Part shown: positions 1,253 through 35,384 of the stretch, one piece after another
How positions within the stretch are numbered: the stretch's first letter is position 1
Layout: each line of letters begins with the position of its first letter
NCBI GenBank assembly: GCA_964479165.1
Contig: CAYZJO010000001.1
Location: forward strand, 829,218 to 893,217
Direction: 5' to 3'
DNA: 64,000 nucleotides
Origin: an uncultured Dehalococcoidaceae bacterium
GTDB taxonomy: Bacteria; Chloroflexota; Dehalococcoidia; UBA2979
The notes under the pieces: model-generated
The model's input: the letters and a program-made list of their open reading frames with translations, nothing else
Told to the model about the DNA's origin: nothing
Database searches by the model: none
Position numbers and translations under genes: made by a program

Positions 1253-1372
1253 GCGTGCGAAGCACGAGTGTACGCCTCAGCCGAAGGCCTCTCAACCGGG
1301 TTTAGGGAGCTCCCCGAGTGCCGGCGACACGTCGAATCCCTAGCGTCGGAGAGGTTGGGCCGAGGAGTGCGC

Positions 1373-3058
1373 ATGGTCGCCGAACCCCGCTGGATCGACG
1401 AGTCCGAAGCCGAGCCCGCTGCCGCTCCTCGTTCGCGCCTCGATGTCGGGTCCCTCGCGGCTGTCGGGAGCGCGGTGGTCGCTGGTGCGCTCGTGCGCGT
1501 CCTCCCGGCGACCGGCGGTTTCCCCGTGAATGACGGCGGCATGTTCGCGGTCATGATCGAGGACCTGAAAGCGGCGGGCTTCGCACTCCCCGCGTACACG
1601 ACCTACAACGGTGCGGACATCCCCTTCGCCTACCCGCCCCTCGGCTTCTATCTCGGTGCGCTCGTCTCGATGTTGCCCGGCTTCGATGTGTTTCGCGCGC
1701 TCGTGTGGCTGCCGGTGCTTGTGTCGATCGCCACTCTGGCCGTGTTCTATCCGCTTGCACGCCGCTTCCTCGGCGGTCACGAGGCGGCGGTGCTGGCGAC
1801 GTTCGCGTTCGCCTTCATCCCGAGGGCGTACAACTGGGAGATCATGGGCGGCGGCCTGACACGTTCGCTCGGGATGTTCTTCGCCGTCCTGGCGCTCGCG
1901 TTCCTCTACGACGTCTACGTCCGCGGCTCGCGTCGCGCGATCGTGCCGGCCGCCTTGCTTGCCTCACTCGCGATCCTGAGTCACCTCGAGATGGGGTGGT
2001 TCACCGTGTACAGCGCAGCGCTCCTGCTGGCCTTCCACCGTGATGACTTCCGAGGCAAGGTCGCGGCAACGGCGGTCATCGGGGTCGTGGTAACGGCGAT
2101 TACCGCGCCGTGGTGGCTGGCGTTGTTCGCGATGCACGGTGTCGAGCCGTTCGAGGCGGCGCTGAAGACCGGCGACTGGTCGCCGCTTACCGTCTTCCGC
2201 CTACTGATTTTCGACTTCGGTGAGGCACCGCTGCTCGACTTCATCCCCGTGCTCGCAGTGCTCGGACTCTTCACCTGCGCCGCGCGGCGGTGGTGGCTCT
2301 TGCCCGCGTGGGTCGTGGCGATTTTCGTGCTCGATCCGCGCAAGGCGCCGACGCTCGCGAGTGTGCCGGTCGCGCTGCTCGCGGCGCTCGCGCTCGACGG
2401 GATCGTGCTGCCCGCGCTGCGAACGAGCGTCGCGAGGGTGGAGGCGGTGACGGAGGCTGGGCGGCGCCGCGCCGAGCGGGTGGCCGGCGCCTTCCTCGTG
2501 ATGGTGCTTGCGTACTCGATGTTCTCCGCTACGGCTGCGGCAACGACGCGCGAGGTCCTCGCGTGGTCCGCGACGACCCAACTGTCAGTCGAGGAGCGGG
2601 CCGCGATGGAGTGGGTGGCGACCGAGACTCCGGAGGACAGCCGCTTCGTCGTCCTCAGCGATGCCCTGCGCTGGGCAGAGGATCGCAGCGCCGAGTGGTT
2701 CCCCGCCATCGCGCAGCGCACGAGCGTGGCGACGCCGCAGGGGTACGAGTGGCTCTCTGTACCGTTCCCCGAAGTTGAGGAGCGTTACGAAGACCTCGCG
2801 CGCTGCGGCCGGCAAGCGGCCGGCTGTCTCGCGGAGTGGAGCGCTGCGTACGACGCTCCCTTCACGCACGTCTACGTAGCCGGTCCGAGTCTCCGAGGCC
2901 TGACAGACAACTCGACTTCGATCGAACAGCGCCTGTCCTCCTGCTGCGATGTCCTGGAGGCCTCGCTTGCACGGTCGCCCGACTATCGGCTGCTGCACGA
3001 TGCGGGCGACGTGCGGGTGTACGAGTACCGCGGATCTGCGCGGACGTCCTCGAGGTAG
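1373..3058 (+). CDS. polytopic membrane protein, possible GT-C-fold glycosyltransferase (PMT/ArnT-like topology)
   Basis: Start taken at in-frame ATG 1373 (MVAEPRW), because the track start at 1181 would overlap the helicase start. There are about 10-12 hydrophobic segments in the first 400 aa, followed by a roughly 200-aa soluble C-terminal domain. Codon usage is the high-GC type. Confidence 0.55.
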   Translation: MVAEPRWIDESEAEPAAAPRSRLDVGSLAAVGSAVVAGALVRVLPATGGFPVNDGGMFAVMIEDLKAAGFALPAYTTYNGADIPFAYPPLGFYLGALVSMLPGFDVFRALVWLPVLVSIATLAVFYPLARRFLGGHEAAVLATFAFAFIPRAYNWEIMGGGLTRSLGMFFAVLALAFLYDVYVRGSRRAIVPAALLASLAILSHLEMGWFTVYSAALLLAFHRDDFRGKVAATAVIGVVVTAITAPWWLALFAMHGVEPFEAALKTGDWSPLTVFRLLIFDFGEAPLLDFIPVLAVLGLFTCAARRWWLLPAWVVAIFVLDPRKAPTLASVPVALLAALALDGIVLPALRTSVARVEAVTEAGRRRAERVAGAFLVMVLAYSMFSATAAATTREVLAWSATTQLSVEERAAMEWVATETPEDSRFVVLSDALRWAEDRSAEWFPAIAQRTSVATPQGYEWLSVPFPEVEERYEDLARCGRQAAGCLAEWSAAYDAPFTHVYVAGPSLRGLTDNSTSIEQRLSSCCDVLEASLARSPDYRLLHDAGDVRVYEYRGSARTSSR

Positions 3059-3068
3059 CGGGGACGCG

Positions 3069-3398
3069 TCAGGCGGTCCGGCGCGAAGCCCGTGCGAGCT
3101 CGTCGAGTTCAACGATGCCGCCGAGCAGGTCCGCCACGGTCCAGCCCTGATTTACGGGGTGACGCAACTCTCGCTCGAGGTCGAGGTGGTACGCGTTGCG
3201 CCGGCCGATCCTCGTGGCCACGAGATATCCCCCAACGCGCAGGTCGCGGAGGATGCGTGCGGCCGCGCGTTCGCTGATTCCGGCGGCGTCCGCCACTTCG
3301 CGAATCGTCGAGTCCGGGTTTCGAGCCACGTGAATGAGCGCGGCGCCGTGGTTCGTTAGGAACGTCCAGCGGCTTCCATCCGTCGTTGATTCAGTCAT
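3069..3398 (-). CDS. winged-helix HTH transcriptional regulator (ArsR/MarR-like)
   Basis: Internal start MTESTTDGSRWTFLTNHGAALIHVARNPDSTIREVADAAGISERAAARILRDLRVGGYLVATRIGRRNAYHLD shows a helix-turn-helix plus wing pattern. It is divergent from the antiporter gene. Confidence 0.6.
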   Translation of the reverse strand: MTESTTDGSRWTFLTNHGAALIHVARNPDSTIREVADAAGISERAAARILRDLRVGGYLVATRIGRRNAYHLDLERELRHPVNQGWTVADLLGGIVELDELARASRRTA

Positions 3399-3539
3399 TA
3401 CCGTCCTCTCTGGGTGGTGGTGCCTGCACCTTACACAGAGGCGCAAGACCGTTGCCTCACCGGACATGATGCTCGTGGCACCTGAGCGCCCCCCGTGGTT
3501 GAATCGGCGAACGCCCCGTGTCACCGCTGAGAGGACCGC

Positions 3540-4631
3540 ATGGACGCGCTGACGACCGTACTGTTCGTGGTCGGGTTGGTCCTGCTCGTCGTCGGCGCGG
3601 AGTCACTGGTGCGGGGGGCGTCGCGCCTGGCCGCGACCATTGGCGTTTCGCCATTGGTCATCGGACTGACGGTCGTCGCCTTCGGTACAAGCGCGCCCGA
3701 GCTTGCCGTGAGCGTCTCGTCGTCGTTCTCCGGGAACGCAGACGTGGCGGTCGGGAACGTCGTCGGCAGCAACATCTTCAATGTGCTGTTCATCCTTGGC
3801 CTGGCCGCGATCGTGGCGCCGCTCGTCGTCTCGCAGCAGCTGGTCCGCCTCGACGTGCCGCTGATGATCGGGGTCTCGATCCTGCTGCTGTTGATGTCGC
3901 TGGACGACAACATCGGACGGATCGATGGGGCGATCCTGTTCGCCGGCATCCTTGCCTACACGTGGTTCGCCATCCAATCGAGCCGGCGGGAGAGCAAGCA
4001 AGTCGCCGAGGAGTACGAGGAGGAGTTCGGCGAGACCGACCGGTCCGGCGGTCGGGTGGTCTTCGACCTGTTGCGGGTCGCCGTTGGGCTCGTCCTGCTC
4101 GTTCTCGGTGCGCGCTGGTTCGTGGACGGCGCCGTTGAGATCGCGGAGGCGCTGGGCGTCTCCGACCTGGTCATCGGACTCACTATCGTCGCGGCCGGCA
4201 CATCGATGCCTGAACTGGCGACGTCGGTGGTCGCGAGCATCCGGGGCGAGCGCGACATCGCAGTCGGGAATGTGGTGGGAAGCAATATCTTCAACATCCT
4301 CGCTGTGCTCGGACTTTCCGGCCTCGTGGCTCCGGATGGAGTCGCAGTTGCCGAGAGCGCCCAGCGTGTCGACATCCCGGTGATGGTGGCGGTGGCCGTG
4401 GCGTGCCTGCCCATCTTCTTCACGGGCTACATCATCACGAGGTGGAACGGACTGCTGTTCTTGGCAATGTACGCCGGTTACGTGGCCTACCTCCTATTCG
4501 ATGCGACCGAGAGTGCGATGCTCGGGCCGTTCTCGGTCACGATGCTCGGCTTCGTGCTACCGATTACCGGCCTCACGCTCGTGCTTCTCGCGCTCCGCTA
4601 CCTGCGGCAGGAGCGGACGGCGCGCACCTGA
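3540..4631 (+). CDS. yrbG: Ca2+/Na+ antiporter, CaCA family (YrbG-like)
   Basis: Two alpha-repeat motifs (GTSAPEL...GNVVGSNIFNVL and GTSMPELATS...GNVVGSNIFNIL). About 10 TM segments with an acidic central loop. Confidence 0.9.
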   Translation: MDALTTVLFVVGLVLLVVGAESLVRGASRLAATIGVSPLVIGLTVVAFGTSAPELAVSVSSSFSGNADVAVGNVVGSNIFNVLFILGLAAIVAPLVVSQQLVRLDVPLMIGVSILLLLMSLDDNIGRIDGAILFAGILAYTWFAIQSSRRESKQVAEEYEEEFGETDRSGGRVVFDLLRVAVGLVLLVLGARWFVDGAVEIAEALGVSDLVIGLTIVAAGTSMPELATSVVASIRGERDIAVGNVVGSNIFNILAVLGLSGLVAPDGVAVAESAQRVDIPVMVAVAVACLPIFFTGYIITRWNGLLFLAMYAGYVAYLLFDATESAMLGPFSVTMLGFVLPITGLTLVLLALRYLRQERTART

Positions 4632-4654
4632 GGATCGGCTACCGGGGCGGCGCT

Positions 4655-4678
4655 GCATTGTCAGCGCGCGTACAATGC
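4655..4678. promoter_or_regulatory. candidate operator: inverted repeat GCATTGT-N10-ACAATGC with a GCGCGC core, overlapping a TACAAT -10-like hexamer
   Basis: Perfect 7-bp arms seen directly in the sequence, about 80 nt upstream of the GTG start at 4759. Confidence 0.3.
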
Positions 4679-4758
4679 CACAGGTAATACAAGCAGCCGC
4701 TCTCCTGCCGCGCTCCCGCTCGACGAGTGAGCGGCGTTGCACGAAGAGGAGGCGCCGA

Positions 4759-5448
4759 GTGCCTCGATACCTCGTTGTTGCGCACCAGACGGCCACCGGC
4801 AAGTCGCTGTTGGATCGACTGCGCGAACTTGCTGCGAAGGACCGCAGCGCCGAGTTCTCGCTCCTGGTCCCGGCGACCCCGGTGAACCACCTGTTGACCT
4901 GGGAGAAGGGCGAGTCGCGAGCGATCGCAGAGGAACGCGGCGAGGAGGCTCGCCGGATGCTCGGCGACGCCGGCCTGCGGGTGCGCGCCGTCCGCGTCGG
5001 TGACGCCTCGCCGATCCTCGCCATCGAGGATGAGCTGCGCCAGCACCCCGAGGACCACGACGTGATCGTCCTCTCGACGCTCGCGCAGGGGCGTTCGAGG
5101 TGGCTCGCTCAGGACGTCCACCAGCAGGCGCTCAAGCGCTTCGACCTGCCCGTCCTCAAGATCGTCGAGGGGGAGCCGTCGCCCTTCGACGACTTCGATC
5201 CCACGACGGCGAAACGTCGGGAGCGCTCGATGGCGCCTGACAGCGAGCGCGGCGCGGTCGCGCGATTGCTCGGGCGCGTCGGCGTGCGGCACATCGTCGC
5301 GGTAATGGCGCTGTATCTCCTGGGGGCGCTGGTGCTCGCGGTCGTCTACGACCAGAAGTTCCTGTTCAACGATGCGCTCGCGCTCGCCATCTTCGGGACG
5401 CTGATCCTCGGACTGCTGGCGATCGAGCGATGGGCGCCGTCTGCGTGA
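4759..5448 (+). CDS. hypothetical protein with a USP-like alpha/beta nucleotide-binding-type domain and a C-terminal TM helix
   Basis: GTG start 7 nt after GAGGAGG; the longer track ORF from 4501 would overlap the antiporter. RYLVVAHQTATGKSLLDRLRELAA...VIVLSTL alternating beta-alpha pattern; C-terminal hydrophobic stretch VAVMALYLLGALVLAVV. Confidence 0.5.
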   Translation: MPRYLVVAHQTATGKSLLDRLRELAAKDRSAEFSLLVPATPVNHLLTWEKGESRAIAEERGEEARRMLGDAGLRVRAVRVGDASPILAIEDELRQHPEDHDVIVLSTLAQGRSRWLAQDVHQQALKRFDLPVLKIVEGEPSPFDDFDPTTAKRRERSMAPDSERGAVARLLGRVGVRHIVAVMALYLLGALVLAVVYDQKFLFNDALALAIFGTLILGLLAIERWAPSA

Positions 5449-5543: not shown

Positions 5544-6749
5544 ATGGTCGACTTCGCCGACTCCCCCGAACAGGCGGCGTTCCGCGCCGAGGTCCGTGAG
5601 TTCATCAAGGACCGACTCCCCGCGGAGCTGATCTACAAGCCGGAGGAAGTTCGGTCCTTCGACGAGGAGGACCCGGAGGAGAAGCGCGCTGCCATGAAGC
5701 AGTGGCGCGAGGCCCTCGTCGAGAAGGGCTGGATCGCGCCGATGTGGCCGAAGGACCTCGGCGGTGCGGCGCTCTCCACCATGGAGCAGTTCATCCTCAA
5801 CGAGGAGTTCACCGAGGCCCGCGCCCCGATGATGCGCGTCCCCGACGTGGGCAGCACGATCATGGTGCACGGCTCTGAGGAGCAGAAGAAGGAGTACCTC
5901 CCGAAGATGGTCACCGGCGAGTCCCGCTGGTGCCAGGGCTACTCCGAGCCGGGCTCGGGCTCCGACCTCGCCTCGCTCCAGACCCGCGCGGTCCGCGACG
6001 GTGACGACTTCGTCATCAACGGGCAGAAGATCTGGACCTCCGGCGCCCACCTCGCGAACATGATGTTCGCCCTCGTGCGCACCGACCCGGACGCCCCGAA
6101 GCACCGCGGCATCACCTACCTCCTGCTGCCGATGACGTCGCCGGGCATCAGCGTCCGCCCGTTGAAGCAGATGTCCGAGGCCTCCGGCTTCAACGAGGTC
6201 TTCTTCGAGGACGTGCGCGTTCCCGTCCGCAACGCGATCGGTGAGATCAACCGCGGCTGGTACGTCGGCGCGACCCACCTCGACTTCGAGCGCTCGTCCA
6301 TCGGCCAGTCGGTCGGCCAGAAGCAGACGCTCGACGCCCTGAAGAACTTCCTGGTCGACGAGGAGAAGGCGGGCAGCGGTCGCTCGACGATCAGCCGCAA
6401 TGCCGGCGCGCGCGCCGAGCTGGCGGACCGTTACACCGAGGCCGAGGTCGCGAAGAACATGTCGTACCGCGTCGTCTCGATGCAGGCGGCCGGGCAGATC
6501 CCGAACTACGAGGCCTCGATGGCCAAGATGTTCAACACGGAGCTGTCCCAGCGCATCGCTCGCACCGCGACGAAGACGCTCGGCCTCTACGGCGGCCTCT
6601 TCGACGAGAACGACACGACCTACACGCCGATGAAGCGCCGCTGGTCGCGCATGTACCTCTCGACGGTGTCGGCGACGATCGCCGGTGGCACCTCGGAGAT
6701 CCAGCGCAACGTCATCGCTACGCGCGGCCTGGGCCTGCCTCGCGGGTAG
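5544..6749 (+). CDS. acyl-CoA dehydrogenase family protein
   Basis: GGAGGAAGG RBS. Conserved ACAD blocks (GYSEPGSGSDLASLQTRA, DDFVINGQKIWTSGAH, GGTSEIQRNVIA). The antisense ORF 5346..6278 is rejected. Confidence 0.9.
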   Translation: MVDFADSPEQAAFRAEVREFIKDRLPAELIYKPEEVRSFDEEDPEEKRAAMKQWREALVEKGWIAPMWPKDLGGAALSTMEQFILNEEFTEARAPMMRVPDVGSTIMVHGSEEQKKEYLPKMVTGESRWCQGYSEPGSGSDLASLQTRAVRDGDDFVINGQKIWTSGAHLANMMFALVRTDPDAPKHRGITYLLLPMTSPGISVRPLKQMSEASGFNEVFFEDVRVPVRNAIGEINRGWYVGATHLDFERSSIGQSVGQKQTLDALKNFLVDEEKAGSGRSTISRNAGARAELADRYTEAEVAKNMSYRVVSMQAAGQIPNYEASMAKMFNTELSQRIARTATKTLGLYGGLFDENDTTYTPMKRRWSRMYLSTVSATIAGGTSEIQRNVIATRGLGLPRG

Positions 6750-6773
6750 CTGTCGACGCTCGGAGTGAGGACG

Positions 6774-6803
6774 GAGGCCCGGCGCGAGCCGGGCCTCTTC
6801 TTC
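6774..6803 (+). terminator. rho-independent terminator after the acyl-CoA dehydrogenase
   Basis: GAGGCCCGGC-gcga-GCCGGGCCTC is a perfect 10-bp stem, followed by TTCTTC. Confidence 0.7.
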
Positions 6804-6873
6804 AGAAGCCTTACGTTAGGTCAGTTGGACCCTCGCTGCGCTTGGGGTGGCGGTACGAACGATCACGCTTGAC

Positions 6874-6901
6874 TTGCAGGCGTGGGCGAGCCTGCTAGAG
6901 T
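6874..6901 (+). promoter_or_regulatory. candidate sigma70-like promoter for the low-GC island (TTGCAG-N16-TGcTAGAGT)
   Basis: Hexamers read directly; an extended -10 TG is present. It lies about 75 nt upstream of the 6976 start. Confidence 0.25.
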
Positions 6902-6975
6902 GCGCGCCACACGACTTGGAATGCGACACGGCTGTATTCGGCTACTTGCTCGATTAGCTGAACTCGGAGGCAGGG

Positions 6976-8130
6976 ATGCACCGACTAGGCCGTCCTCGAT
7001 TCGTCCTTTTCGCTGGGCTTATCTCTTCCGCGCTTCTCACGCTGATGTGGATCGGTCTGAACGAAACCCGCGCATCATCTGCGTTTCTAGAGAACGTCCT
7101 TATCTCGCAGACCGTCGAGATTCACCGGCCTCCACCTGACTTTCCGGAGCCAGCGGACCCTTACCACCTTGATCGTGAGGCTTTTCCCACAGCCGTTCGG
7201 GAGCACGACACGATCGAGGTGGGAAGAGGTGGGCTAGCGGTAAGGGTCCACGTTCGGGAACTCGACCTTCAAGGCAGGCTGCTGCAAGAGGGTCTGTACG
7301 ACGATGTCCTCGGGGTCGTGCGGAATCGCAACTACATTACGGCGATCGAGCTAGTCGACGACACGGAACCGCTTTCAGTCCTCGTCGAGGACGAGGAGTT
7401 GCTTAACCGTGATTTCGTTGAGTTGGGCCAACGAACTGTCGCTGGCCTGGCCGGCCGCGAGTTCGTCCGTGATCTTGGTTCGTCGTCTGGGGTGGTGCTC
7501 GAGAACAGGGTCGTCGTTTCCGCCGAGGGCCTCCTACTTCTCGATGAAACTGTGGAGATACGCGAAGGCGCCGAGGCGCTGATCGAGCGGAGGGAGGTCA
7601 CGAGTCTCGAGATTCGCGACTTGGACGACGCCGATGGCACTTTCTTGCTGTCTGGGCCGCCGTTGACTGTTGTTCATGATCTCCGCACGCACGGTCCCAC
7701 TGCGGCCACGGAGGTCGCAACTGTTGCGGCGCTGCCTTCCGGCCTCCTACAGATCGACGCGGCCACCCAGTCTCACAGCGCGGGCGCGTTGAGCGAGGCG
7801 GATTTGCCGTCCGCGAGCGGTGTCGGACTTGCTGCGCTGCTGAACGGTGCCTACTCCTCGCTGGTGCAGCTCAATACTGGACATGCTCTGGTCATGCAGA
7901 GTCGGTCTCCGTCGTTCGACGAGCAAGTACGCCGGTCGATAGCCGACTGGGTGAACTCACGCGTCGAGACCGTGACTCTCGCGGATGGTCGAGAACTGGA
8001 CGCTTGGATAGCGGACGGGCTGGATGGCAGTTCGCTAGCCTTCCTCCGGGTCGGCGACTTGCTTGCCGTCGTCAGGTCTTACGATGCAGATATCCACGCC
8101 GTCCTCGAGTCGGCTCTTATTGCGCGGTAG
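6976..8130 (+). CDS. hypothetical protein, N-terminal signal anchor plus acidic extracytoplasmic domain (island gene A)
   Basis: GGAGG RBS. MHRLGRPRFVLFAGLISSALLTLMWIG hydrophobic anchor. The rest is D/E-rich with no motif I recognise. Lower-GC codon usage. Confidence 0.55.
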   Translation: MHRLGRPRFVLFAGLISSALLTLMWIGLNETRASSAFLENVLISQTVEIHRPPPDFPEPADPYHLDREAFPTAVREHDTIEVGRGGLAVRVHVRELDLQGRLLQEGLYDDVLGVVRNRNYITAIELVDDTEPLSVLVEDEELLNRDFVELGQRTVAGLAGREFVRDLGSSSGVVLENRVVVSAEGLLLLDETVEIREGAEALIERREVTSLEIRDLDDADGTFLLSGPPLTVVHDLRTHGPTAATEVATVAALPSGLLQIDAATQSHSAGALSEADLPSASGVGLAALLNGAYSSLVQLNTGHALVMQSRSPSFDEQVRRSIADWVNSRVETVTLADGRELDAWIADGLDGSSLAFLRVGDLLAVVRSYDADIHAVLESALIAR

Positions 8131-8157
8131 TCGCTCCCGAATCACCAAGGAGTCGTC

Positions 8158-8628
8158 ATGATTCAACGGTGGTCCACTTCCCTTCTTGTTGTGATCGTCG
8201 CAGCCTTCGCTCTGAGTACGGCGAATCCGGCTGGAGCTTGGATTCAAACTTGGACTCATACAGGCACCTGGGGCATAGGTACGCTCCAGTGGACGCACGG
8301 CTGGGACTGGTATTCGACCTGCTGCACCAAGGGCGGTGGTCGTTCTCACGGCACTCCATCCGGGTCGGCTACGTTCGACCAGATCTCCGTTACCAGCATC
8401 CAGAGCTGGACGAGTACCAACGGGGGAGCCTCGTGGACTCTCCGGGCTTCACACGGTGGGGCGACGTGGTTCAACTCCAACGACACAGGCTTGTACTGGA
8501 CGGGCGGCCATGGGCTCCCACCAATGGCACCCTCCCCTAAATACCGAGTCAATGCGACTCACACGTGGAAAGACCCATCGACGGTTTCATTCACGTCGTA
8601 TCACTATGAGGGTGAAGTCCCGCCATAA
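8158..8628 (+). CDS. small secreted W/T/G/H-rich protein (island gene B), possibly bacteriocin-like or lectin-like
   Basis: AAGGAG RBS 7 nt upstream. Signal peptide MIQRWSTSLLVVIVAAFALSTANPAGA. The mature ~130-aa product has many Trp and a CC pair. Confidence 0.6.
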   Translation: MIQRWSTSLLVVIVAAFALSTANPAGAWIQTWTHTGTWGIGTLQWTHGWDWYSTCCTKGGGRSHGTPSGSATFDQISVTSIQSWTSTNGGASWTLRASHGGATWFNSNDTGLYWTGGHGLPPMAPSPKYRVNATHTWKDPSTVSFTSYHYEGEVPP

Positions 8629-8684
8629 CTCGCAAAGTCGCCGCCAATCTCGCTGCGTATCTTCGAAATGCACTGACTGCGCTA

Positions 8685-9500
8685 TTGGTGGTGGTCATAG
8701 CATCTGCGTGTTCTGCTCGGGGCGACGAACTAGACGTAGCGTCGGTGCAGGAAGTCCTCGATGCCGACGTTCTTGCAGTGGTTGGACACAGCGGCGAGGT
8801 TCGGTACGCGTTGTTCCTGGGCACTGTCGGCGGATCCGGCCCCGCCGACGTTGTGGCTTTCGATGCGCGCGACCCGTCCTCGCAGTGCTTGCTGCAGTGG
8901 GAGACCGAGGTCCCCTTCGAAGGAAGGAGCGCGTACTTCCGCGATCCGTGTCTGGGTTCCGTCTATGCCTCGGATGGAGCCCGATTGTTTGGCCCCTCTG
9001 CTAGCGATCTGAAGGAGGTCGCCACGTCGATCTCTGATGGGCGCGTACGAGTTCTAGAAGGCGATTTGCCCCCCACCCCACCGGACGCCATGTCGCATAC
9101 GCCATCCGTTGCCGTTACTCTGCTCATGGAAGCAAGGCGTGCTCAGATCACCGAGATCGTCTTCGATCTTCTCAGCGACGACCTCCTAGAGCATGCAATC
9201 GCTGGGTCGTCGGACGCGCGGCTTTTTCCCCGGAGCCGCTACTGCTGGTTCGACTATCAACTCGATGTGCTCGAGTCCCGGGACGACGCAATGTCGTTCG
9301 TGGTCCGCGTCTATCAGCACCATCTCGAAGGGGATATCGTTGGCGGCGTCCCGACGTCTTGGATCGAGGAAATCGACGTCGAGAAAGCCTCTGATTCCTG
9401 GGTCGTCACGGGGCTCCGTGTTCAATCTACTCCACGCCCCGAGACGGACGTGCGACACGGTCCTTCGCTCTCCGCGTGCGTCGCGCTCGTAGGAGAATAG
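8685..9500 (+). CDS. hypothetical protein (island gene C)
   Basis: First possible start is TTG; an upstream in-frame stop lies at 8613. N-terminus VVVIASAC is a weak lipobox. No recognised domain. Confidence 0.45.
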   Translation: MVVVIASACSARGDELDVASVQEVLDADVLAVVGHSGEVRYALFLGTVGGSGPADVVAFDARDPSSQCLLQWETEVPFEGRSAYFRDPCLGSVYASDGARLFGPSASDLKEVATSISDGRVRVLEGDLPPTPPDAMSHTPSVAVTLLMEARRAQITEIVFDLLSDDLLEHAIAGSSDARLFPRSRYCWFDYQLDVLESRDDAMSFVVRVYQHHLEGDIVGGVPTSWIEEIDVEKASDSWVVTGLRVQSTPRPETDVRHGPSLSACVALVGE

Positions 9501-9556
9501 GCGCTCTCGCGAGACAGCTATTCGATCTCCGATGCGCTGAACCGTCTCAGTGCCCC

Positions 9557-10246
9557 TCACTCGTAGAGCCTCAGGTGGCTCCCCCGCGTCACCCCGAGCT
9601 GCTCCGCGAGCCACTCCACCACCAGCGCACGCACCTCCTCCCGCACCTGGCGCAGGCTGTGGGTGGCGCCCTCGAGGAGCTCGAGGCGGCGCGGGTCGCC
9701 GGCGCGTTCGTAGAGGAGGCGTGAGCAATCGGCGGGGAGGCGCTGGTCCGCGAGTCCGTGGATGAACAGCGTCGGGATGGGCGCGAGCAGCCCGACGCGC
9801 TGCGCCCCCGCGGTCTGCGTCGCGAGCGTGGCGACGGCCGCCACGCGTGGCGCGCGGCCCTTCGTCTGCACAGCTGCCTCGATCATGACCGCGCCGCCGA
9901 AGGAGTGGCCGAGGAGTCCGACGCGCTGCACGCCCTCGGATGCGAGGTACTCGAGGCCCGCGCGGACGTCGTGGACGCCGGCCTCGACGATGCCGGGAAA
10001 CCGGTGGTCGCGGAAGTCGAGGCGCAGCGTGCCGATGCCGATGCCGGCGAGGTCTTCGGCAAGGTCGGGGTACAGCGCAGACGGACCGTCGAGCCCGCCG
10101 TCACCGCCTCCGACCATGATCACGGCGGCGCTGCCAGCGGCTGACTTCGAGGGCATGTGGAGCGCGCACGAGATCGGCCCGCGCTCTGACGGTACTTCGA
10201 TGAGGCGTCCCGAGTTTCCTGCCGCGGGGGTCAGCGACTCGTTCAT
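9557..10246 (-). CDS. alpha/beta hydrolase (dienelactone-hydrolase-like)
   Basis: Internal ATG (MNESLTP) forms an ATGA overlap with the stop of the upstream MpaB-like gene. Nucleophile elbow GHSFGG. Confidence 0.75.
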   Translation of the reverse strand: MNESLTPAAGNSGRLIEVPSERGPISCALHMPSKSAAGSAAVIMVGGGDGGLDGPSALYPDLAEDLAGIGIGTLRLDFRDHRFPGIVEAGVHDVRAGLEYLASEGVQRVGLLGHSFGGAVMIEAAVQTKGRAPRVAAVATLATQTAGAQRVGLLAPIPTLFIHGLADQRLPADCSRLLYERAGDPRRLELLEGATHSLRQVREEVRALVVEWLAEQLGVTRGSHLRLYE

Positions 10247-14629: not shown

Positions 14630-14815
14630 ATGGCTGCCCAACGACTCTACGAACCGCCCCAGCGTCCGCGCCCGACCGTAGCCGAACGTTTGTCGGGGCA
14701 ACTTATCGTCCTGGAGCCGCGGGGACGCCTTCTTCGAGGCACGGCGATCGCCGTCGTCCTGTCCGTAGCGGGGTTCTGGACGCCGCTCGCGCTCCTCGCG
14801 GCGCGCCTCAGCTAG
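14630..14815 (+). CDS. small hypothetical protein (61 aa) with a C-terminal hydrophobic segment
   Basis: Strong RBS AAGAGGAG 8 nt upstream of ATG. Convergent with otsA, overlapping its 3' end by 4 nt. Confidence 0.3.
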   Translation: MAAQRLYEPPQRPRPTVAERLSGQLIVLEPRGRLLRGTAIAVVLSVAGFWTPLALLAARLS

Positions 14816-16143
14816 CCGCTCGTTCGCTCCGCCGCGGCTGACGCGAGCGCTTCGAGGTAGCGTCGCCGCCACTCGTGCACCGTGTTCGCCTCGACCCCTG
14901 AACTCAGCGCCGCCCAGCGCTGCCGGCGCTCCTCAAGCGGCATCGCGAGCGCCTGCTCCATCGCTGCCTCGAGTACCTCGACGTCACCAGCAGGGACGAT
15001 CAGCGCCTCACGCATCCGCTCGGCAGCGCCACAACCATCGGAGAGGATGAGCACGCCGGGCCGCTCAGGGCGCTGGAGAGCGACGTACTCCTTCGCGACG
15101 AGGTTCATCCCGTCCGAGAACGAGGTCACGAGGCAGACCTCCGCGTCGCGGAGGCCGGCGGCGACGGTCTCCAGTGGCAGCGTGGTCAGCTCGAAGCGCA
15201 CCGGCTCGCCGTCGTGCGACTCATTTGCGTGGTCGACGAGGCGCTCGATGGCAGCGCGCTCGGCGGCATACTCCGCGATGCCGGTCCGCGACGGGGCCGC
15301 CCACTGGACGAGGACTGCCCCAACGCGTGCGTCTGCCGAGCGCGTCAGCAACCGCTCGAACGCCTCGACCCGCTGGCCGATGCCCTTGCTGTAATCCAGG
15401 CGGTCCGCACCGAGGAGCACCTGCCTCCCGCGCCGGTACTCCTCGAATGGATCGCCCGGGTGACGCGCCGCCGAGGCACGTACGCGCTCGGGGTCGATGC
15501 CGATGGGGTGCGCCTCGATCCGTGCGCCGGGCGCGAGGCGTCGAAGGGTCGCGGCGTCGCGCTCGGTTTGGACTCCCACGAGGTTGTATGCGGCGAGGGA
15601 CTCCGCGATGGCCTCGGCGCCGGGGACGAGACGCCAGCCCTCCTCGTTTACCGGGATGTGGTGGAAGTAGCCGAGCGCGCCCTCCCATCCCAGGCGCCGC
15701 AACTCCGAGCCGAGTGGGAGCAGGTGGTAGTCGTGCACCCAGATGACGTCGCCGTCTTCGCAGAGCTCCGCCACCTCGCGCGCATAACGCCGATTCACCT
15801 CGAGCCAGGTGTCGTGGTAGCCGGGCTCGATGTCCGCGCGGTCGAGGAAGCCGTGCAGCAGTGGCCAGAGGACGCTGTTGCTGAAGCCCTCGTAGAAGCC
15901 GCGGATCTCCTCGGGGGAGAGGTCGATCGTCGCGTACTCGACGTTGTGCTCGGTGCGCCGGACCGGAGTGGACTGGGCAGTGCCTTCGCGGCCGCTCCAG
16001 CCAAACCAGAGCCCGCCCGCCTGCTCGAGCGCCGGAAGCACGGCGGCAACCAGGCCACCGGCCGGCGGGGGCGTGTTGGGATCGGGCGGTGGAGGCACCC
16101 GGTTCGAGATGACGACGAGACGACGGCTCGCCGCGTCAGTCAC
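14812..16143 (-). CDS. otsA: alpha,alpha-trehalose-phosphate synthase (GT20)
   Basis: GTG start (VTDAASRRLVVISNRVPP) forms a GTGACTGA overlap with the otsB stop. GT20 blocks VLWPLLHGF and DYHLLPL. The track ORF extension to 16581 lies inside otsB and is rejected. Confidence 0.9.
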   Translation of the reverse strand: MTDAASRRLVVISNRVPPPPDPNTPPPAGGLVAAVLPALEQAGGLWFGWSGREGTAQSTPVRRTEHNVEYATIDLSPEEIRGFYEGFSNSVLWPLLHGFLDRADIEPGYHDTWLEVNRRYAREVAELCEDGDVIWVHDYHLLPLGSELRRLGWEGALGYFHHIPVNEEGWRLVPGAEAIAESLAAYNLVGVQTERDAATLRRLAPGARIEAHPIGIDPERVRASAARHPGDPFEEYRRGRQVLLGADRLDYSKGIGQRVEAFERLLTRSADARVGAVLVQWAAPSRTGIAEYAAERAAIERLVDHANESHDGEPVRFELTTLPLETVAAGLRDAEVCLVTSFSDGMNLVAKEYVALQRPERPGVLILSDGCGAAERMREALIVPAGDVEVLEAAMEQALAMPLEERRQRWAALSSGVEANTVHEWRRRYLEALASAAAERTSG

Positions 16144-16945
16144 TGCGTGACTCCGCCGCCTGGAGCCACTCCTGCAGGAACACGAGTACCTCGGGGTAGT
16201 TGAGCCGCGCCAGCGCGGCGGTGGAGCGGTCGTGCTCCGAGACGAGGATCGGCAGCCCGCGCCCGCCGGCGGCAAGGAGCGCGAGGAAGGCGTCCTCGTC
16301 CGTCTCGTCGTCGCCGAGGTAGGCGACCGGAGCGTTCGGCATGGAGTCGAGGAGCTCGCGCATGGCGTCGCCCTTGTTCCGTCCGGGGTGGCGCAGCTCG
16401 AGGCCGCCGTCGAACGGACGCAGGTCGAGGCCGACTTCTTCAGCCAGATCGCGCCAGCGCCTGCCCACGCGCGACTCGAGACGTTCCTGCTCGGCGTCGC
16501 TGAGCCCGCGCCAATGGAGGGCGAGGGCAGCCGACTTCCGCTCGAGGTGTTCGCCCAGGCCCTCCTCGAGCAGCCGTGCATACTCCTCGGCCACGCACGT
16601 GAGGACGGACTGCGGGATGACCCAGTCGTCCCGGGTCCCGTCCTCCAGACGGTGCTCCCAGCCGTGCACGCCGTACATCTCCGGCAGGGGCTCGATCTCC
16701 ACCATGGTCTCGAGGTCGGCGATCGGGCGGCCCGAGACGACGACGAGGCGGGTGGCTCGGGTTCGTCTCAGTTGGCCCAGCACCGGCAGCAGTTGCGGGG
16801 ATATGCGCGCTTCCATCCGTTCCGCGCGGAATGGCGCGAGCGTGCCATCGAAGTCGAGCGCGAGGAGGCTCGGTCCCGAGGCGACGCGTGGCAGGAACTC
16901 CGCGATCGCTCGCCGGCGTTCCTGCTCCGTGGCTCGCTGGTGCAT
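16136..16945 (-). CDS. otsB: trehalose-phosphate phosphatase (HAD family)
   Basis: LALDFDGTLAP HAD motif I and GDDETDEDAF motif IV. Confidence 0.85.
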   Translation of the reverse strand: MHQRATEQERRRAIAEFLPRVASGPSLLALDFDGTLAPFRAERMEARISPQLLPVLGQLRRTRATRLVVVSGRPIADLETMVEIEPLPEMYGVHGWEHRLEDGTRDDWVIPQSVLTCVAEEYARLLEEGLGEHLERKSAALALHWRGLSDAEQERLESRVGRRWRDLAEEVGLDLRPFDGGLELRHPGRNKGDAMRELLDSMPNAPVAYLGDDETDEDAFLALLAAGGRGLPILVSEHDRSTAALARLNYPEVLVFLQEWLQAAESRSD

Positions 16946-16954
16946 CGTGACCCG

Positions 16955-18268
16955 CTAGATCGACAAGGGGTCGTTGACACGTGGCGAGCGCACGGTCGAC
17001 CCGACCGGCAGGCTCGTCTTGTTGCGCAGTTCCTCCGCGACCATCGGCCCGATGACGGTGTTGCGCAGGATCTCGAACCTAGGCGGGATCTGCGCGCGCT
17101 TGCCGATGACGTTCACTCCGCTCCAGATCAGGTCGGGCCGCTCGAGGTTCGGCGTGAAGTCGTCGCCTGTGCCGACGCGGGCGCCCCAGCCGATGGTCAC
17201 CTGCTTGTCGATGATCGATCGCTCGACGATCGCGCCCGACTCCACTCGCACCTCGTTCAGCAGCACGGAGTCGCGCACCACGGCTCCGGCCTCGACGACG
17301 ACGCCCGGCGAAAGCACCGAGTGCTCAACTGTGCCGTGGATGACGCTGCCGCTGCCGACCATCGCCTGGCGCACCTCGGCGGACGGGCCGAAGCGGGCGG
17401 ACGGCAGCTTGTGTCCCCTCGTGAGGATGCGCCGCCCGGGCTGGTTGAAATCGAGCGGGGGCGGGTCGTCGAGGAGTTCCATGCTGGAGGCCCAGTACGC
17501 CTCAACCGTTCCGATGTCGCGCCAGTAGCCCTCGAAGGGGAATCCGTACACCCGCGCGTCCTCAGTGATCGCGCGCTGGAGCACGTCGTGGCCGAAGTCG
17601 TGGCCGCTGCGTTCGTCCTCGGCGTCCGCGATCAGGATGTCGACGAGGAAGCCCGCCTTGAAGGCGTAGAAGCCCATCGAGGCACGCGTGCTCGTCGGAT
17701 GTTCGGGCTTCTCGACGAAGGCGCGGACGCGGTCGTCCGCGTCCAACGTGACGAGTCCGAAGCGCGAGGCGTCCTCGAGCGGCACGTCCGTCACGCCCAG
17801 CGTGACATCGGCGTCGCGCTCCCGGTGGAAGTCGAGCATCGGACGGTAGTCGGTGGCGTAGACGTGATCACCCGCGAGTACGAGGACGGTGTCCGCGTTG
17901 TAGTCCCGCAGCGCGAACAGGTTCTGGTAGACCGCGTCCGCGGTCCCGGTGTACCAGTCCCACTCGGTGCCGCGCCGCTGGTACGGCTGGAGGATCGAGA
18001 CGCCATCGGGTGCATCGCGATCGAGGCCCCACGGCCCGCCGCCCGCGATGTGCTCGTTGAGCGAGCGGGGGAGGTACTGCGTGAGCACGCCCACTCGTGT
18101 GATGCCAGAGTTGGCGCAGTTGCTCAGGACGAAGTCGATGATGCGGTACGAGCCGCCGAACGGCACCGCGGGCTTAGCCCGCTGTTCGGAGAGGACACTG
18201 AGGCGGTCGCCCATGCCGCCGGCCATGATGAAGGCAATCACGCGGGAGGGCATACGCGATGTCGCCAC
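16955..18268 (-). CDS. glgC: glucose-1-phosphate adenylyltransferase
   Basis: IMAGGMGDRLSVLSEQRAKPAVPFGGSYRIIDFVLSNCANSGI canonical GlgC N-terminus, plus the left-handed beta-helix C-terminus. Confidence 0.9.
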   Translation of the reverse strand: MATSRMPSRVIAFIMAGGMGDRLSVLSEQRAKPAVPFGGSYRIIDFVLSNCANSGITRVGVLTQYLPRSLNEHIAGGGPWGLDRDAPDGVSILQPYQRRGTEWDWYTGTADAVYQNLFALRDYNADTVLVLAGDHVYATDYRPMLDFHRERDADVTLGVTDVPLEDASRFGLVTLDADDRVRAFVEKPEHPTSTRASMGFYAFKAGFLVDILIADAEDERSGHDFGHDVLQRAITEDARVYGFPFEGYWRDIGTVEAYWASSMELLDDPPPLDFNQPGRRILTRGHKLPSARFGPSAEVRQAMVGSGSVIHGTVEHSVLSPGVVVEAGAVVRDSVLLNEVRVESGAIVERSIIDKQVTIGWGARVGTGDDFTPNLERPDLIWSGVNVIGKRAQIPPRFEILRNTVIGPMVAEELRNKTSLPVGSTVRSPRVNDPLSI

Positions 18269-18447
18269 GGGTGGCCCCCTCGTCGCCGGACTCGCTACGT
18301 CGCGTTCACTCGCGACTCACATTAGCAATCGCCGTCAAAGCACGCGCGAGATTGCGCGTGAGGTGCGCGGCCTACGCCGCCGCCGTGACCGGTCGAGGAC
18401 ACCGCCGCTAACCTGTGACAGAGCAATGAGGAGCGGATGGAGCGAGC

Positions 18448-20978: not shown

Positions 20979-22454
20979 CTAGTCGATCCTCCAGCGATGC
21001 GGCGCGATGAGCTCGTCCGCGGCCGGGGGACCCCAGGTGCCGGCGGCGTAGGGCACCACCGGCGGCATGTCGTGGAGCACCGGCTCGAGCACCTCCCAGG
21101 AACGGTCGACGATGTCGGACCTCAGGAAGAGCATGGCATCTCCGTCCATCGCGTCGTAGAGGAGGCGTTCGTACGCCTCGGCGGGCTCGGTCATGAACGA
21201 CTCGCTATAGCGGAAGTTCATGCGGACCGGTTGCAGCGTGATCTCGGGACCAGGCGCCTTTGCCATGAAGGTGAACGAGATACCGTCGTCCGGCTGAATG
21301 CGGATGGTGAGGCGATTCGGCCGCACCTCCTCCGGAGCGATGCCGACAGCCTCGAAGAGCCGCACGGGCACGTCGCGGAAGACCACCTGCACTTCGGTAA
21401 CGCGCCGGCGCAGCCGCTTGCCCGTCCGGAGGAAGAACGGGACGCCGGCCCAGCGCCAGTTGTCGATCTCGGCGCGCAGGGCCACGTACGTCTCGGTTTG
21501 TGACCCGGGCGTCACCCCTTCTTCCTCACGGTAGCCCGGCACGGGAACGCCGAGGAGACTGCCGCCCTCGTACTGCCCGCGCACCACGTCGGCGGGCTTT
21601 ACTGGCTGCATCGACATCAGGACCTTGATCGTCTCGTCGCGGATTCCGTTCATGTCGAATGCAGCCGGCGGCTCCATCGTCAGGAGGGATAGCACCTGCA
21701 TCGCGTGGTTCTGGATGATGTCGCGGAGCGCCCCTACCTCTTCGTAGAAGGCCCCACGACCCTCGACGCCCAGCGACTCGGCAACCGTGATCTGCACGTG
21801 GTCGATGGCGTCGCGGTTCCACACCCGCTCCCAGAGGGCGTTTCCGAACCGGAACACGAGGATGTTCTGGACGGTTTCCTTCCCCATGTAGTGGTCGATG
21901 CGGAAGATCTGCGACTCGCGGAAATCGCGGTGGAGCGTCTCATCGAGCTCGCGCGCCGACTTCAGGTCGAAGCCGAACGGCTTCTCGACGACGAGGCGGG
22001 TGCCCTGTGCGAGTCCCGTCGAAGCGATCTCCTCGACCGTTGGGGGGACCGCCGAAGGGGGTGTGGCGAGGAACACGATGCGCTGCGGGAGCGTGGCCTT
22101 GCGTGCCACTGCCGCGAAGCCGCCTTCCGACCTCGAGATGTAGGTCAGCCGGTGCTGGAGGTCGGCCCAGGCTTCGTCGTACAGCGGCCGCCGAGCAAAC
22201 GTGGCGATCGACTCGATGGCGAGCGAGCGAAAGGTCTCGTCGTCACCCTCGCTGCGCGCGTAGCCGATGATCTGTCCGCGGTTTGGGAGGAGGCCGTCGA
22301 GGTACAGATCGTAGATCGCGGGGATCAGCTTGCGACGCGCGAGATCGCCCGTCGCCCCGACGAGCACGATGTCCTGATCAGGTGGGGGCTGGAGCGTGTA
22401 GGCAGCACGTCCGCCGCCGCCCTCATTGTTGCCTGCCACCGGAGGTCCGGTCAT
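20979..22454 (-). CDS. zwf: glucose-6-phosphate 1-dehydrogenase
   Basis: GATGDLARRKL NADP-binding motif, RIDHYMGKE active-site motif, EKPFG. Confidence 0.92.
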   Translation of the reverse strand: MTGPPVAGNNEGGGGRAAYTLQPPPDQDIVLVGATGDLARRKLIPAIYDLYLDGLLPNRGQIIGYARSEGDDETFRSLAIESIATFARRPLYDEAWADLQHRLTYISRSEGGFAAVARKATLPQRIVFLATPPSAVPPTVEEIASTGLAQGTRLVVEKPFGFDLKSARELDETLHRDFRESQIFRIDHYMGKETVQNILVFRFGNALWERVWNRDAIDHVQITVAESLGVEGRGAFYEEVGALRDIIQNHAMQVLSLLTMEPPAAFDMNGIRDETIKVLMSMQPVKPADVVRGQYEGGSLLGVPVPGYREEEGVTPGSQTETYVALRAEIDNWRWAGVPFFLRTGKRLRRRVTEVQVVFRDVPVRLFEAVGIAPEEVRPNRLTIRIQPDDGISFTFMAKAPGPEITLQPVRMNFRYSESFMTEPAEAYERLLYDAMDGDAMLFLRSDIVDRSWEVLEPVLHDMPPVVPYAAGTWGPPAADELIAPHRWRID

Positions 22455-23323: not shown

Positions 23324-23361
23324 CGCGCGACTCCCGCTTCGGCCCGTCCTCGATGTCCCGG

Positions 23362-35380: not shown

Positions 35381-35384
35381 AGTT

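What the first reader, a model, noticed from the sequence alone, without database searches (positions are those of the whole stretch)
8158..8628. Small secreted Trp/Thr/Gly/His-rich protein with a CC pair
The 156-aa product has a textbook Sec signal peptide (cleavage after ANPAGA). Its mature ~130-aa domain is dominated by W, T, G, S and H (WIQTWTHTGTWGIGTLQWTHGWDWYSTCC...). The composition recalls small beta-sandwich secreted bacteriocins of Gram-positive and actinobacterial lineages (lactococcin-972-like) or carbohydrate-binding modules. Placement between a membrane-anchored protein and another extracytoplasmic protein fits a toxin plus accessory arrangement.
Basis: inference. Interest (0 to 1): 0.55.

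Follow-up and report, generated by a model that had tools for sequence, protein, structure and literature searches.

The report
Orphan secreted beta-sandwich protein in three-gene cassette
The ORF is a real gene for a small exported all-beta protein from a very rare, undescribed family that always sits between the same two exported partner genes on a horizontally acquired island; it is not a lactococcin-972-type bacteriocin, and its function remains inferred only.

Summary
The ORF at 8158-8628 (+) exists as described. It has a strong ribosome-binding site, a Sec-type signal peptide and a W/T/S-rich mature part of about 129 aa.

It has no match in Pfam, NCBIfam, PHROGs, PADLOC or PDB sequences. 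Only five relatives (28-36% identity) turned up among billions of public proteins. They share a conserved cleavage site, an Asp-box hairpin motif (S-x-[DN]-x-G-x-[TS]-W) and PKY[KR]-x4-H-x-W-x-D.

The CC pair and the His content are peculiar to this copy. The relatives instead carry a conserved Cys pair that this copy has lost.

In all four genomes with context, the gene lies in the same cassette:
- A: an exported or anchored protein of 290-385 aa.
- B: this gene.
- C: an anchored Rieske-fold protein that has lost its four Fe-S ligands.

The flanking genes differ in all three genomes where flanks are held. Cassette G+C is lower than the flanks in each (shown as GC3 in two), so it looks like a mobile accessory module. 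Inactivated copies exist.

The AF2 model (pLDDT 69) is an 8-stranded all-beta domain with only generic Ig-like matches.

Lcn972 and CBM membership were tested and not met. My best guess is a non-enzymatic binding or adaptor subunit of a cell-envelope complex with A and C. A toxin role is not excluded.

The parts
6750..9556 (.). Compositionally atypical island holding the three-gene cassette, between an acyl-CoA dehydrogenase gene (ends 6749) and a convergent alpha/beta-hydrolase gene (ends 9557)
   Evidence: G+C is 58-63% against 67-74% in the flanks. GC3 is 0.64-0.68 for the three genes against 0.86-0.95 for four flanking genes. The cassette is also G+C-poorer than its flanks in L011, by GC3, and in L096, by overall G+C. 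No tRNA, integrase or convincing flanking repeats were found.
6976..8130 (+). Gene A: 384-aa protein with an N-terminal hydrophobic signal or anchor (residues ~9-28). No known domain. Conserved partner of the target gene.
   Evidence: 32% identical over 333 aa to the gene upstream of the B homologue in L011. More distant homologues occupy the same position in L012 and L096. No Pfam, NCBIfam or PDB match.
7082..7084 (+). TTT run (codon 37 of gene A) that is TT in four otherwise identical public assemblies. That allele gives a frameshift and an immediate TAG.
   Evidence: The 303-aa and 409-aa gene calls P0008 and P0009 are products of that allele.
8148..8153 (+). Shine-Dalgarno sequence AAGGAG of the target gene
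   Evidence: Read directly from the sequence.
8158..8628 (+). Gene B (the finding): 156-aa precursor of a small exported all-beta protein
   Evidence: Homologues P0002, P0004, P0005 and P0006, plus a copy in L096. AF2 model with pLDDT 68.8 and eight beta-strands.
8158..8238 (+). Signal peptide, residues 1-27 (MIQR / hydrophobic core / ANPAGA)
   Evidence: Read from the sequence. The A|[W/F] junction is conserved in the family alignment.
8320..8325 (+). Cys55-Cys56 pair. It is lineage-specific and not conserved in any relative.
   Evidence: Alignment A2.
8413..8436 (+). Asp-box-like hairpin motif S86-T-N-G-G-A-S-W93 (family consensus S-x-[DN]-x-G-x-[TSN]-W)
   Evidence: Alignment A2. This is the only stretch that aligns to PDB sequences, namely sialidase BNR repeats, and that match is not significant. 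It fits the published consensus (PMC2716378). In the model it lies between strands 73-86 and 94-99.
8518..8574 (+). Most conserved block of the family: P121-x5-P127-K-Y-[KR]-x4-H135-x-W137-x-D139
   Evidence: These are invariant columns in A2. A DNA pattern built on this block retrieved a sixth family member from metagenomes.
8625..9500 (+). Gene C: extracytoplasmic protein with a lipoprotein-like signal, a Rieske-fold domain lacking the four Fe-S ligands, and a copy-specific C-terminal extension. The start is uncertain: ATA 8625, CTG 8673, TTG 8685 or GTG 8745.
   Evidence: Profile A5 hits small Rieske proteins at E=1e-6 to 1e-5, with weak PetC hits in NCBIfam. Homologues sit in the same position in L011, L012 and L096.
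8877..9053 (+). Rieske-like core of gene C (SQC...FRDPCLGSVYASDGARLFGPSASDL...RVRV)
   Evidence: The ligand Cys and His positions are replaced. The two cysteines that form the Rieske disulfide are kept.

Best explanation
Gene B encodes a Sec-exported, non-enzymatic all-beta domain of about 129 aa, probably an Ig-like sandwich with a single Asp-box hairpin. It belongs to a very rare, undescribed family.

It is one part of a conserved, tightly linked three-gene module A-B-C whose products all face the outside of the cytoplasmic membrane. A is exported or anchored, with no recognisable domain. C is an anchored or lipid-modified Rieske-fold protein without an iron-sulfur cluster.

The most likely working model has three steps:
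1. B is exported and its signal peptide is removed after A27.
2. B folds. In most relatives a disulfide stabilises the fold.
3. B acts as the soluble binding or adaptor subunit of a cell-envelope complex held at the membrane by A and/or C. Its aromatic-rich, Ser/Thr/Gly-rich surface would contact a ligand, most plausibly a glycan or wall polymer.

The module is accessory, spreads horizontally, and is easily lost or inactivated.

**Shown:** the gene, the family, the cassette and the island.
**Inferred from sequence:** export of all three products, and loss of the Fe-S cluster in C.
**Inferred:** the physical complex, the nature of the ligand, and the absence of enzymatic or toxic activity.
For: **Real gene and family**
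- Five relatives at 28-36% identity share length, signal peptide and motifs.

**Export**
- All members carry an N-terminal signal with an AXA-type site.
- Five of six have a conserved Cys pair (TSC...PxC), typical of extracytoplasmic proteins.

**Fold**
- With the five-sequence alignment, AF2 gives pLDDT 68.8 and pTM 0.57, with eight strands.
- Foldseek returns only Ig-like or arrestin-like sandwiches at TM 0.3-0.4 and no enzyme fold.
- The Asp-box consensus is met. In Ig-like sandwiches this motif is reported to be surface-exposed and often to support domain-domain contacts (PMC2716378).

**Module**
- The order A-B-C holds in the window, L011, L012 and L096.
- The genes are 27 nt apart here. 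In L011 the A and B gene calls share base 8696.
- A, B and C diverge to similar degrees, about 21-36% identity.

**Extracytoplasmic partners**
- A and C have N-terminal signals or anchors in every genome.
- C keeps the two Rieske disulfide cysteines but not the four cluster ligands.

**Accessory and mobile**
- Cassette G+C is below the flanks in all three genomes with flanks, and the flanking genes differ in each.
- Inactivated alleles exist.
Against: - No experiment and no informative homologue bears on function.
- The structural model is of medium confidence. Only two of five AF2 models agree, and the best TM-scores are 0.3-0.4, so even the fold class is tentative.
- No interaction between A, B and C was tested.
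- The family is too small for coevolution analysis.
- This copy has lost the conserved disulfide pair, its partner C lacks a canonical start codon, and A is broken in some clones. The module may therefore be decaying here and not working at all.
- Island location, patchy distribution and frequent inactivation fit a conflict (toxin or defence) system at least as well as a structural envelope complex.
Confidence: 0.4

Rival explanations
1. B is a Sec-dependent secreted antimicrobial or antagonistic protein. The membrane-tethered C and/or A would act as immunity or accessory proteins.
For: - B is small and exported, and sits on a horizontally acquired low-GC island with a very patchy distribution.
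- The co-conserved partners face the same compartment, as tethered immunity proteins of envelope-acting toxins do. That comparison rests on general knowledge.
- Inactivated alleles occur, as is common for conflict systems.
Against: - No similarity to Lcn972 or to any bacteriocin or toxin profile.
- No hit in PADLOC.
- The family is neutral to acidic, pI 5.3-7.3, unlike most membrane- or lipid II-targeting peptides.
- No ABC transporter or small multi-pass immunity gene lies near the cassette or in the window.
- All three genes diverge at similar rates. There is no sign of a hypervariable toxin.
- In this strain the putative immunity partners are the impaired ones (A frameshift allele, C without a canonical start) while B is intact. 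That would be hazardous for a self-targeting toxin.
Confidence: 0.15
2. The cassette is a metal-handling or redox-related envelope module. B would bind a metal through the invariant His, Asp, Tyr and Lys residues (and the CC pair in this copy), next to a Rieske-derived partner.
For: - C derives from b6f/bc-type Rieske proteins.
- B has invariant D74, K128, Y129, H135 and D139.
- Small exported beta-sandwiches such as CopC, PCuAC and YcnI are metal chaperones. That comparison comes from memory.
Against: - C has lost all four cluster ligands, so it cannot carry a Rieske centre.
- B has no profile match to any copper- or metal-binding family in Pfam, NCBIfam or PDB at E<=10.
- Only one His is conserved. 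The His richness and the CC pair are copy-specific.
- No transporter, cytochrome or oxidoreductase gene is conserved next to the cassette.
Confidence: 0.1
3. In this genome the cassette is a decaying remnant with no current function. B is still an open frame but is no longer useful.
For: - This B copy alone has lost both conserved cysteines.
- C has no canonical start codon upstream of its signal sequence.
- A carries a null allele in 4 of 10 public assemblies of the same strain.
- The L096 lineage has frameshifts in both A and B.
Against: - B keeps an intact 156-codon frame, a consensus Shine-Dalgarno sequence, a complete signal peptide and every other invariant family residue.
- A and C keep full-length open frames in the window.
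- ATA overlapping the B stop codon could still support coupled initiation of C. This is inference.
Confidence: 0.2
4. The ORF is a chance open frame in G+C-rich DNA and not a gene.
For: Many overlapping ORFs of similar length occur by chance in this region. GC3 is only 0.64.
Against: Diverged homologues share a conserved signal peptide, motifs and length, and sit in the same gene order in four genomes of very different G+C content. A consensus RBS is present.
Confidence: 0.01

Closest known systems
   Same: Sec-dependent export of a small all-beta protein. No leader-peptide processing machinery is needed.
   Different: - No sequence or profile similarity.
- The mature part is about 129 aa, against about 66 aa for Lcn972 (size from memory).
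- It is neutral to acidic, where Lcn972 is cationic (the Lcn972 property is from memory).
- No linked ABC-transporter or immunity genes.
- The partner genes A and C differ from anything in the Lcn972 operon.
Single Asp-box (BNR-motif) hairpins in Ig-like or jelly-roll beta-sandwich domains (Quistgaard & Thirup 2009, PMC2716378)
   Same: The family motif S-x-[DN]-x-G-x-[TSN]-W fits the published consensus x-x-(S/t)-x-(D/n)-x-G-x-(T/s)-(W/f/y). It lies in a predicted hairpin of an all-beta domain. In such sandwiches the motif is structural and often supports domain-domain contacts.
   Different: The Asp-box is a structural micro-motif shared by unrelated folds. It is not a family and implies no function. 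This is not a multi-repeat beta-propeller or sialidase: it has one copy in 129 aa.
Small secreted Ig-like beta-sandwich proteins of unknown role, such as M. tuberculosis MPT63 (recalled from memory)
   Same: About 130-aa mature size, Sec signal, and a beta-sandwich with arrestin- or adaptin-like structural neighbours. The top Foldseek hits here are also arrestin-like.
   Different: No sequence match to any PDB chain at E<=10 apart from the Asp-box stretch. MPT63 is not among the 50 best Foldseek hits. The resemblance is only one of general class.
Rieske [2Fe-2S] proteins of the b6f / small soluble PetC-like type (PDB 8hn2, 5cxm, 9rk3). This is for partner gene C.
   Same: The C-family profile aligns to the cluster-binding subdomain at E=1e-6 to 1e-5. 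The alignment covers the G-S-x-[YF]-x-x-x-G-x-x-x-x-G-P block and the two disulfide cysteines.
   Different: All four cluster ligands (Cys and His of box I, Cys and His of box II) are replaced. C is therefore a cluster-less Rieske fold. Such folds are known elsewhere, for example NirD (from memory), but not in this context.

Membership tests
Lactococcin 972 family (PF09683) | Significant match to the family profile or sequence | tested here: not met
   None of the five family members hits any Pfam model at E<=10 that is relevant.
Lactococcin 972 family (PF09683) | Short (~66 aa) cationic mature peptide | tested here: not met
   The mature part is about 129 aa. pI is 7.25 here and 5.3-6.9 in the relatives. 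The Lcn972 values are from memory.
Lactococcin 972 family (PF09683) | Adjacent ABC-transporter or membrane immunity genes | tested here: not met
   Neighbours within about 7 kb upstream and 10 kb downstream carry no ABC domain. No ORF in the 64 kb combines Walker A with LSGGQ. The rest of the genome was not available.
Lactococcin 972 family (PF09683) | Antimicrobial activity through lipid II binding | not testable with these tools
   Needs purified protein and overlay or binding assays.
Carbohydrate-binding modules / lectins (Pfam and CAZy families) | Match to a CBM or lectin profile | tested here: not met
   No Pfam or NCBIfam hit at E<=10 for any member.
Carbohydrate-binding modules / lectins (Pfam and CAZy families) | Beta-sandwich fold | tested here: inconclusive
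   The AF2 model is all-beta with eight strands and pLDDT 68.8, but only two of five models agree. Foldseek matches are Ig-like sandwiches at TM 0.3-0.4.
Carbohydrate-binding modules / lectins (Pfam and CAZy families) | Binding of a glycan by a surface lined with aromatic residues | not testable with these tools
   Aromatic-plus-His content is 17-26% across the family. That is only suggestive.
Asp-box (BNR) motif | Consensus x-x-(S/t)-x-(D/n)-x-G-x-(T/s)-(W/f/y) in a beta-hairpin | tested here: met
   The window has S86-T-N-G-G-A-S-W93. The relatives have S-C-[ND]-[NK]-G-x-[TN]-W. The motif aligns to sialidase BNR repeats. The consensus is taken from PMC2716378. In the model the motif lies between strands 73-86 and 94-99.
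Asp-box beta-propellers (sialidase-like) | Several Asp-box repeats forming propeller blades | tested here: not met
   One motif in a 129-aa domain. The PDB profile hits have E about 1 and cover the motif only.
Rieske [2Fe-2S] proteins (partner gene C) | Rieske-fold cluster-binding subdomain | tested here: met
   Profile A5 against PDB gives 8hn2 at E=9.7e-7, 9rk3 at 3.2e-6 and 5cxm at 4.7e-6. NCBIfam PetC models hit at E=6e-4, far below their cut-offs.
Rieske [2Fe-2S] proteins (partner gene C) | C-x-H ... C-x-x-H cluster ligands | tested here: not met
   In the window copy, box I reads D-P-S-S-Q-C and box II reads D-P-C-L-G-S. Both His and both ligand Cys are replaced in all four C proteins.

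The most novel reading that the evidence does not exclude
A-B-C is a previously undescribed, horizontally mobile cell-envelope module of uncultured or little-studied high-G+C soil-type bacteria. The nearest G6PD relatives are Ca. Dormibacterota MAGs. It could be a new Sec-dependent antagonistic protein with membrane-tethered immunity. It could also be a new surface-recognition complex in which a cluster-less Rieske-fold lipoprotein has been recruited as a docking platform for a secreted Asp-box beta-sandwich.
Probability: 0.2. Interest if true: 0.6.

Novelty: categorically new. Interest (0 to 1): 0.35.

Why it matters
B and A have no detectable relative in any described family, and C is only a remote, ligand-less derivative of the Rieske fold. 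The three genes travel together between distant genomes. This is therefore a clean example of an unannotated functional module of the bacterial cell envelope.

If it proves to be an antagonistic or surface-recognition system, it would add a new kind of Sec-dependent extracellular effector. It would also add a new use of the Rieske fold.

The novelty is so far only negative, meaning no match to anything known. No mechanism is demonstrated, the family is tiny, and this copy may be decaying. The practical importance is modest until an experiment gives a phenotype.

Tried and rejected
**Profile and sequence searches of B**
- Pfam, NCBIfam, PHROGs and PADLOC gave nothing relevant.
- PDB sequence search with the protein and with the family profile matched only the Asp-box stretch of sialidases, at E about 1.
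- A word-indexed search of 5.8e9 proteins found only the query itself. A full HMMER scan of 1.84e9 representatives found three true relatives. It also found P0003, a 375-aa low-complexity repeat protein, which I rejected as a compositional false positive. A profile search added P0006.

**Structure**
- The single-sequence AF2 run was useless, with pLDDT 35.
- Foldseek against PDB and BFVD gave only generic sandwiches.

**Collection scans**
- Protein-pattern scans of genome, metagenome and viral collections returned 600 chance stretches and no relative. The pattern was very degenerate and the count appears to be a cap, so I do not treat these as evidence of absence.
- A more specific DNA pattern found one more lineage in metagenomes and none in viral contigs.

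**Other checks**
- tblastn of B and A against PLSDB plasmids gave no match.
- A, B and C are not related to one another, and the window holds no paralogue.
- Avidin/streptavidin, which has a similar W/T/G/S composition and eight strands, was considered and dropped. There is no Pfam hit and no avidin among the Foldseek hits.
- An LPMO- or CopC-type N-terminal His was considered and dropped, because the mature N-terminus is W or F in most members.
- An 8-stranded outer-membrane barrel was considered and dropped. The protein has too few aliphatic residues, most relatives have a conserved disulfide, and there is no C-terminal aromatic signature.
- Rfam, repeat, promoter and terminator scans of 6500-9900 found nothing that marks the island borders.
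- A literature search for the SRA run numbers found nothing, and a search for cluster-less extracytoplasmic Rieske proteins found nothing useful.
- The organism could not be identified.

Full report
**1. The observation**

- A consensus Shine-Dalgarno sequence, AAGGAG, lies at 8148-8153.
- The N-terminus has one basic residue, a hydrophobic core of about 15 residues and the site A-G-A|W.
- In the family alignment the junction Ala|Trp/Phe is shared by four of six members. Cleavage after A27 is therefore the best reading, and it gives a 129-aa mature protein.

I compared composition with ten Pfam-supported genes of the same window.
- Trp is 8.5% against 2.2%, Thr 16% against 5.4% and Ser 11.5% against 5.0%. 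All three are clearly enriched.
- Gly is only mildly raised.
- His is not significantly raised (P=0.07).

An ORF of this length is not evidence by itself in this G+C-rich DNA, where many overlapping ORFs occur. The comparative data below are what establish the gene.

**2. A tiny family**

No Pfam, NCBIfam, PHROG, PADLOC or PDB-sequence match exists for the protein.
- A word-indexed search of 5.8 billion proteins found only the query itself, present on 21 contigs.
- A full HMMER scan of 1.84 billion cluster representatives found three true relatives: P0002, P0004 and P0005. They are 146-155 aa long and 31-32% identical to the query. The scan also returned one low-complexity false positive, P0003.
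- A profile search added P0006.
- A DNA pattern built on the most conserved block found a sixth lineage in three metagenome contigs, L093, L096 and L100.

All members have a signal peptide and a mature part of 119-130 aa. The five aligned proteins share these invariant positions: G48, G59, G65, S70, D74, I76, S86, G90, W93, G100, T115, P121, P127-K-Y129, H135, W137 and D139. L096 was matched only by profile.

The block S-x-[DN]-x-G-x-[TSN]-W is an Asp-box.
- It is the only part that aligns to PDB sequences, namely sialidase BNR repeats at E about 1.
- It fits the published consensus.
- According to that analysis, the motif is a structural hairpin found in several folds. In Ig-like sandwiches it is surface-exposed and often supports domain contacts (PMC2716378).

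Five of six members have a Cys pair (T-S-C and P-x-C). The window copy has Thr87 and Met123 at those positions. It instead carries the adjacent C55-C56, which no relative has. High aromatic and S/T/G/N content is family-wide.

**3. Fold**

- The single-sequence AF2 run failed, with pLDDT 35.
- With the five-sequence alignment the model reaches pLDDT 68.8 and pTM 0.57. Blocks of the core reach 80-88, and there are eight beta-strands in a mostly hairpin-connected order. Only two of the five models agree.
- Foldseek against PDB and BFVD gives only generic Ig-like or arrestin-like sandwiches (arrestin, Vps26, LEA14, ApaG, Spo0M, TRAP-beta, YajI) at TM 0.3-0.4.

My reading is an all-beta domain, probably an Ig-like sandwich, with no indication of an enzyme fold.

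**4. The cassette**

In every genome where context is available, the gene is the middle one of three co-oriented genes.

| Locus | A | B | C |
|---|---|---|---|
| Window | 6976-8130 | 8158-8628 | ~8625-9500 |
| L011 | 7539-8696 | 8696-9160 | 9186-9770 |
| L012 | 50-931 | 1028-1468 | 1515-2006 |
| L096 | ~1908-3001 | 3047-3480 | 3574-4182 |

- A proteins are homologous: 32% identity over 333 aa between the window and L011, and weaker to L012 and L096. All begin with a hydrophobic signal or anchor. They match nothing known.
- C proteins are homologous: 44% identity over the core between the window and L012. They begin with a lipoprotein-type signal or a membrane anchor.
- The C profile hits small b6f-type Rieske proteins at E=1e-6 to 1e-5 (weak PetC hits). 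The alignment shows that both ligand Cys and both ligand His are replaced, while the two cysteines that form the Rieske disulfide are kept in three of four. C is therefore a cluster-less Rieske fold.
- A, B and C are unrelated to each other.

**5. Mobile and dispensable**

- The cassette is a compositional island. GC3 is 0.64-0.68 against 0.86-0.95 in the window and 0.54-0.64 against 0.75-0.89 in L011. Overall G+C is 63% against 68% in L096.
- The flanking genes differ in each genome.
- No plasmid, phage or defence-system link was found.
- Ten public assemblies carry DNA identical to the window. Four of them have TT in place of TTT at 7082-7084, which stops gene A after codon 37.
- In L096, both A and B are frameshifted.
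- In the window, the signal sequence of C (TRKVAANLAAYLRNALTALLVVVIASAC) lies upstream of the first ATG, GTG or TTG. The only in-frame candidates are ATA at 8625, which overlaps the B stop codon as ATAA, and CTG at 8673. A single A-to-G change at 8627 would recreate the classic ATGA overlap.

**6. Interpretation**

*Shown:*
- a real gene;
- a new, very rare family;
- a conserved three-gene module;
- a compositional island.

*Inferred from sequence:*
- export of all three products;
- loss of the Fe-S cluster in C.

*Inferred:*
- A, B and C form an extracytoplasmic complex;
- B is its soluble, non-enzymatic binding subunit, possibly for a glycan or wall polymer.

I give this model about 0.4.

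The rivals are:
- a secreted antagonistic protein with tethered immunity or accessory partners, 0.15;
- a metal or redox role, 0.1;
- a decaying, non-functional remnant in this genome, 0.2, which is compatible with any ancestral function;
- a chance ORF, about 0.01.

**7.

- Lcn972 membership was tested and not met. There is no profile hit and hhalign gives 0.2%. The size and charge are wrong, and no ABC or immunity genes are present.
- CBM or lectin membership by profile was not met. A binding function remains plausible but untested.
- The description of the neighbourhood was correct, and it turned out to be the most informative feature.

**8. Limits**

- The organism is unidentified.

**9. 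Verdict**

This is a genuine, previously undescribed protein family and gene cassette with no assignable function. It is new in the narrow sense that nothing described resembles it. It carries no demonstrated mechanism and may be degenerating in this genome. Interest is moderate to low (0.35).

Noticed in passing
window 8625-8711: The lipoprotein-like signal sequence of gene C lies upstream of its first canonical start (TTG 8685). Gene callers start it at 8685, 8688, 8691 or 8745. The only in-frame candidates that include the signal are ATA 8625-8627, which overlaps the stop TAA of gene B as ATAA, and CTG 8673. One A-to-G change at 8627 would give the classic ATGA stop/start overlap. C may therefore have a mutated or non-canonical start.
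   Followed up: partly
window 7082-7084: Four of ten otherwise 100% identical public assemblies (L002, L007, L008, L009) have TT where the window has TTT. This truncates gene A after codon 37. Gene callers then report a 303-aa or a 409-aa product without the signal sequence.
   Followed up: yes
L096 1908-3480 (also L093, L100): The cassette found in JGI metagenome contigs Ga0310120/21/23 has frameshifts in both gene A and gene B. These are identical in three contigs. Either the cassette is a pseudogene in that lineage or there is a shared assembly error. A LuxR/GerE-type regulator is divergently encoded upstream (1284-1682, minus strand).
   Followed up: partly
window 6191-6689: All ten Logan contigs that carry the cassette begin inside the acyl-CoA dehydrogenase gene, at window 6191, 6243-6245 or 6687-6689. 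This suggests a repeat or a strain-variable junction just upstream of the island.
   Followed up: no
window 14800-18300 and 33400-43000: Large trehalose and alpha-glucan gene sets are present. They include OtsA, OtsB and a sugar-nucleotide transferase, then GlgB-like, a TreS-maltokinase fusion (1152 aa), GlgE and a debranching enzyme. G6PD and PGI lie at 20979-25263.
   Followed up: partly
The window's own species was not recovered from that collection.
   Followed up: partly
window 9072-9497 (gene C residues ~130-271): The window's C protein has a C-terminal extension of about 140 aa that the C proteins of L011, L012 and L096 lack. It has no convincing family match (DUF2259 at E=0.2).
   Followed up: no
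window 4501-5448 (+): A 315-aa ORF upstream of the acyl-CoA dehydrogenase gene has no Pfam match. Its start overlaps the end of the Na/Ca-exchanger-family gene (3540-4631), so the real start is probably further downstream.
   Followed up: no
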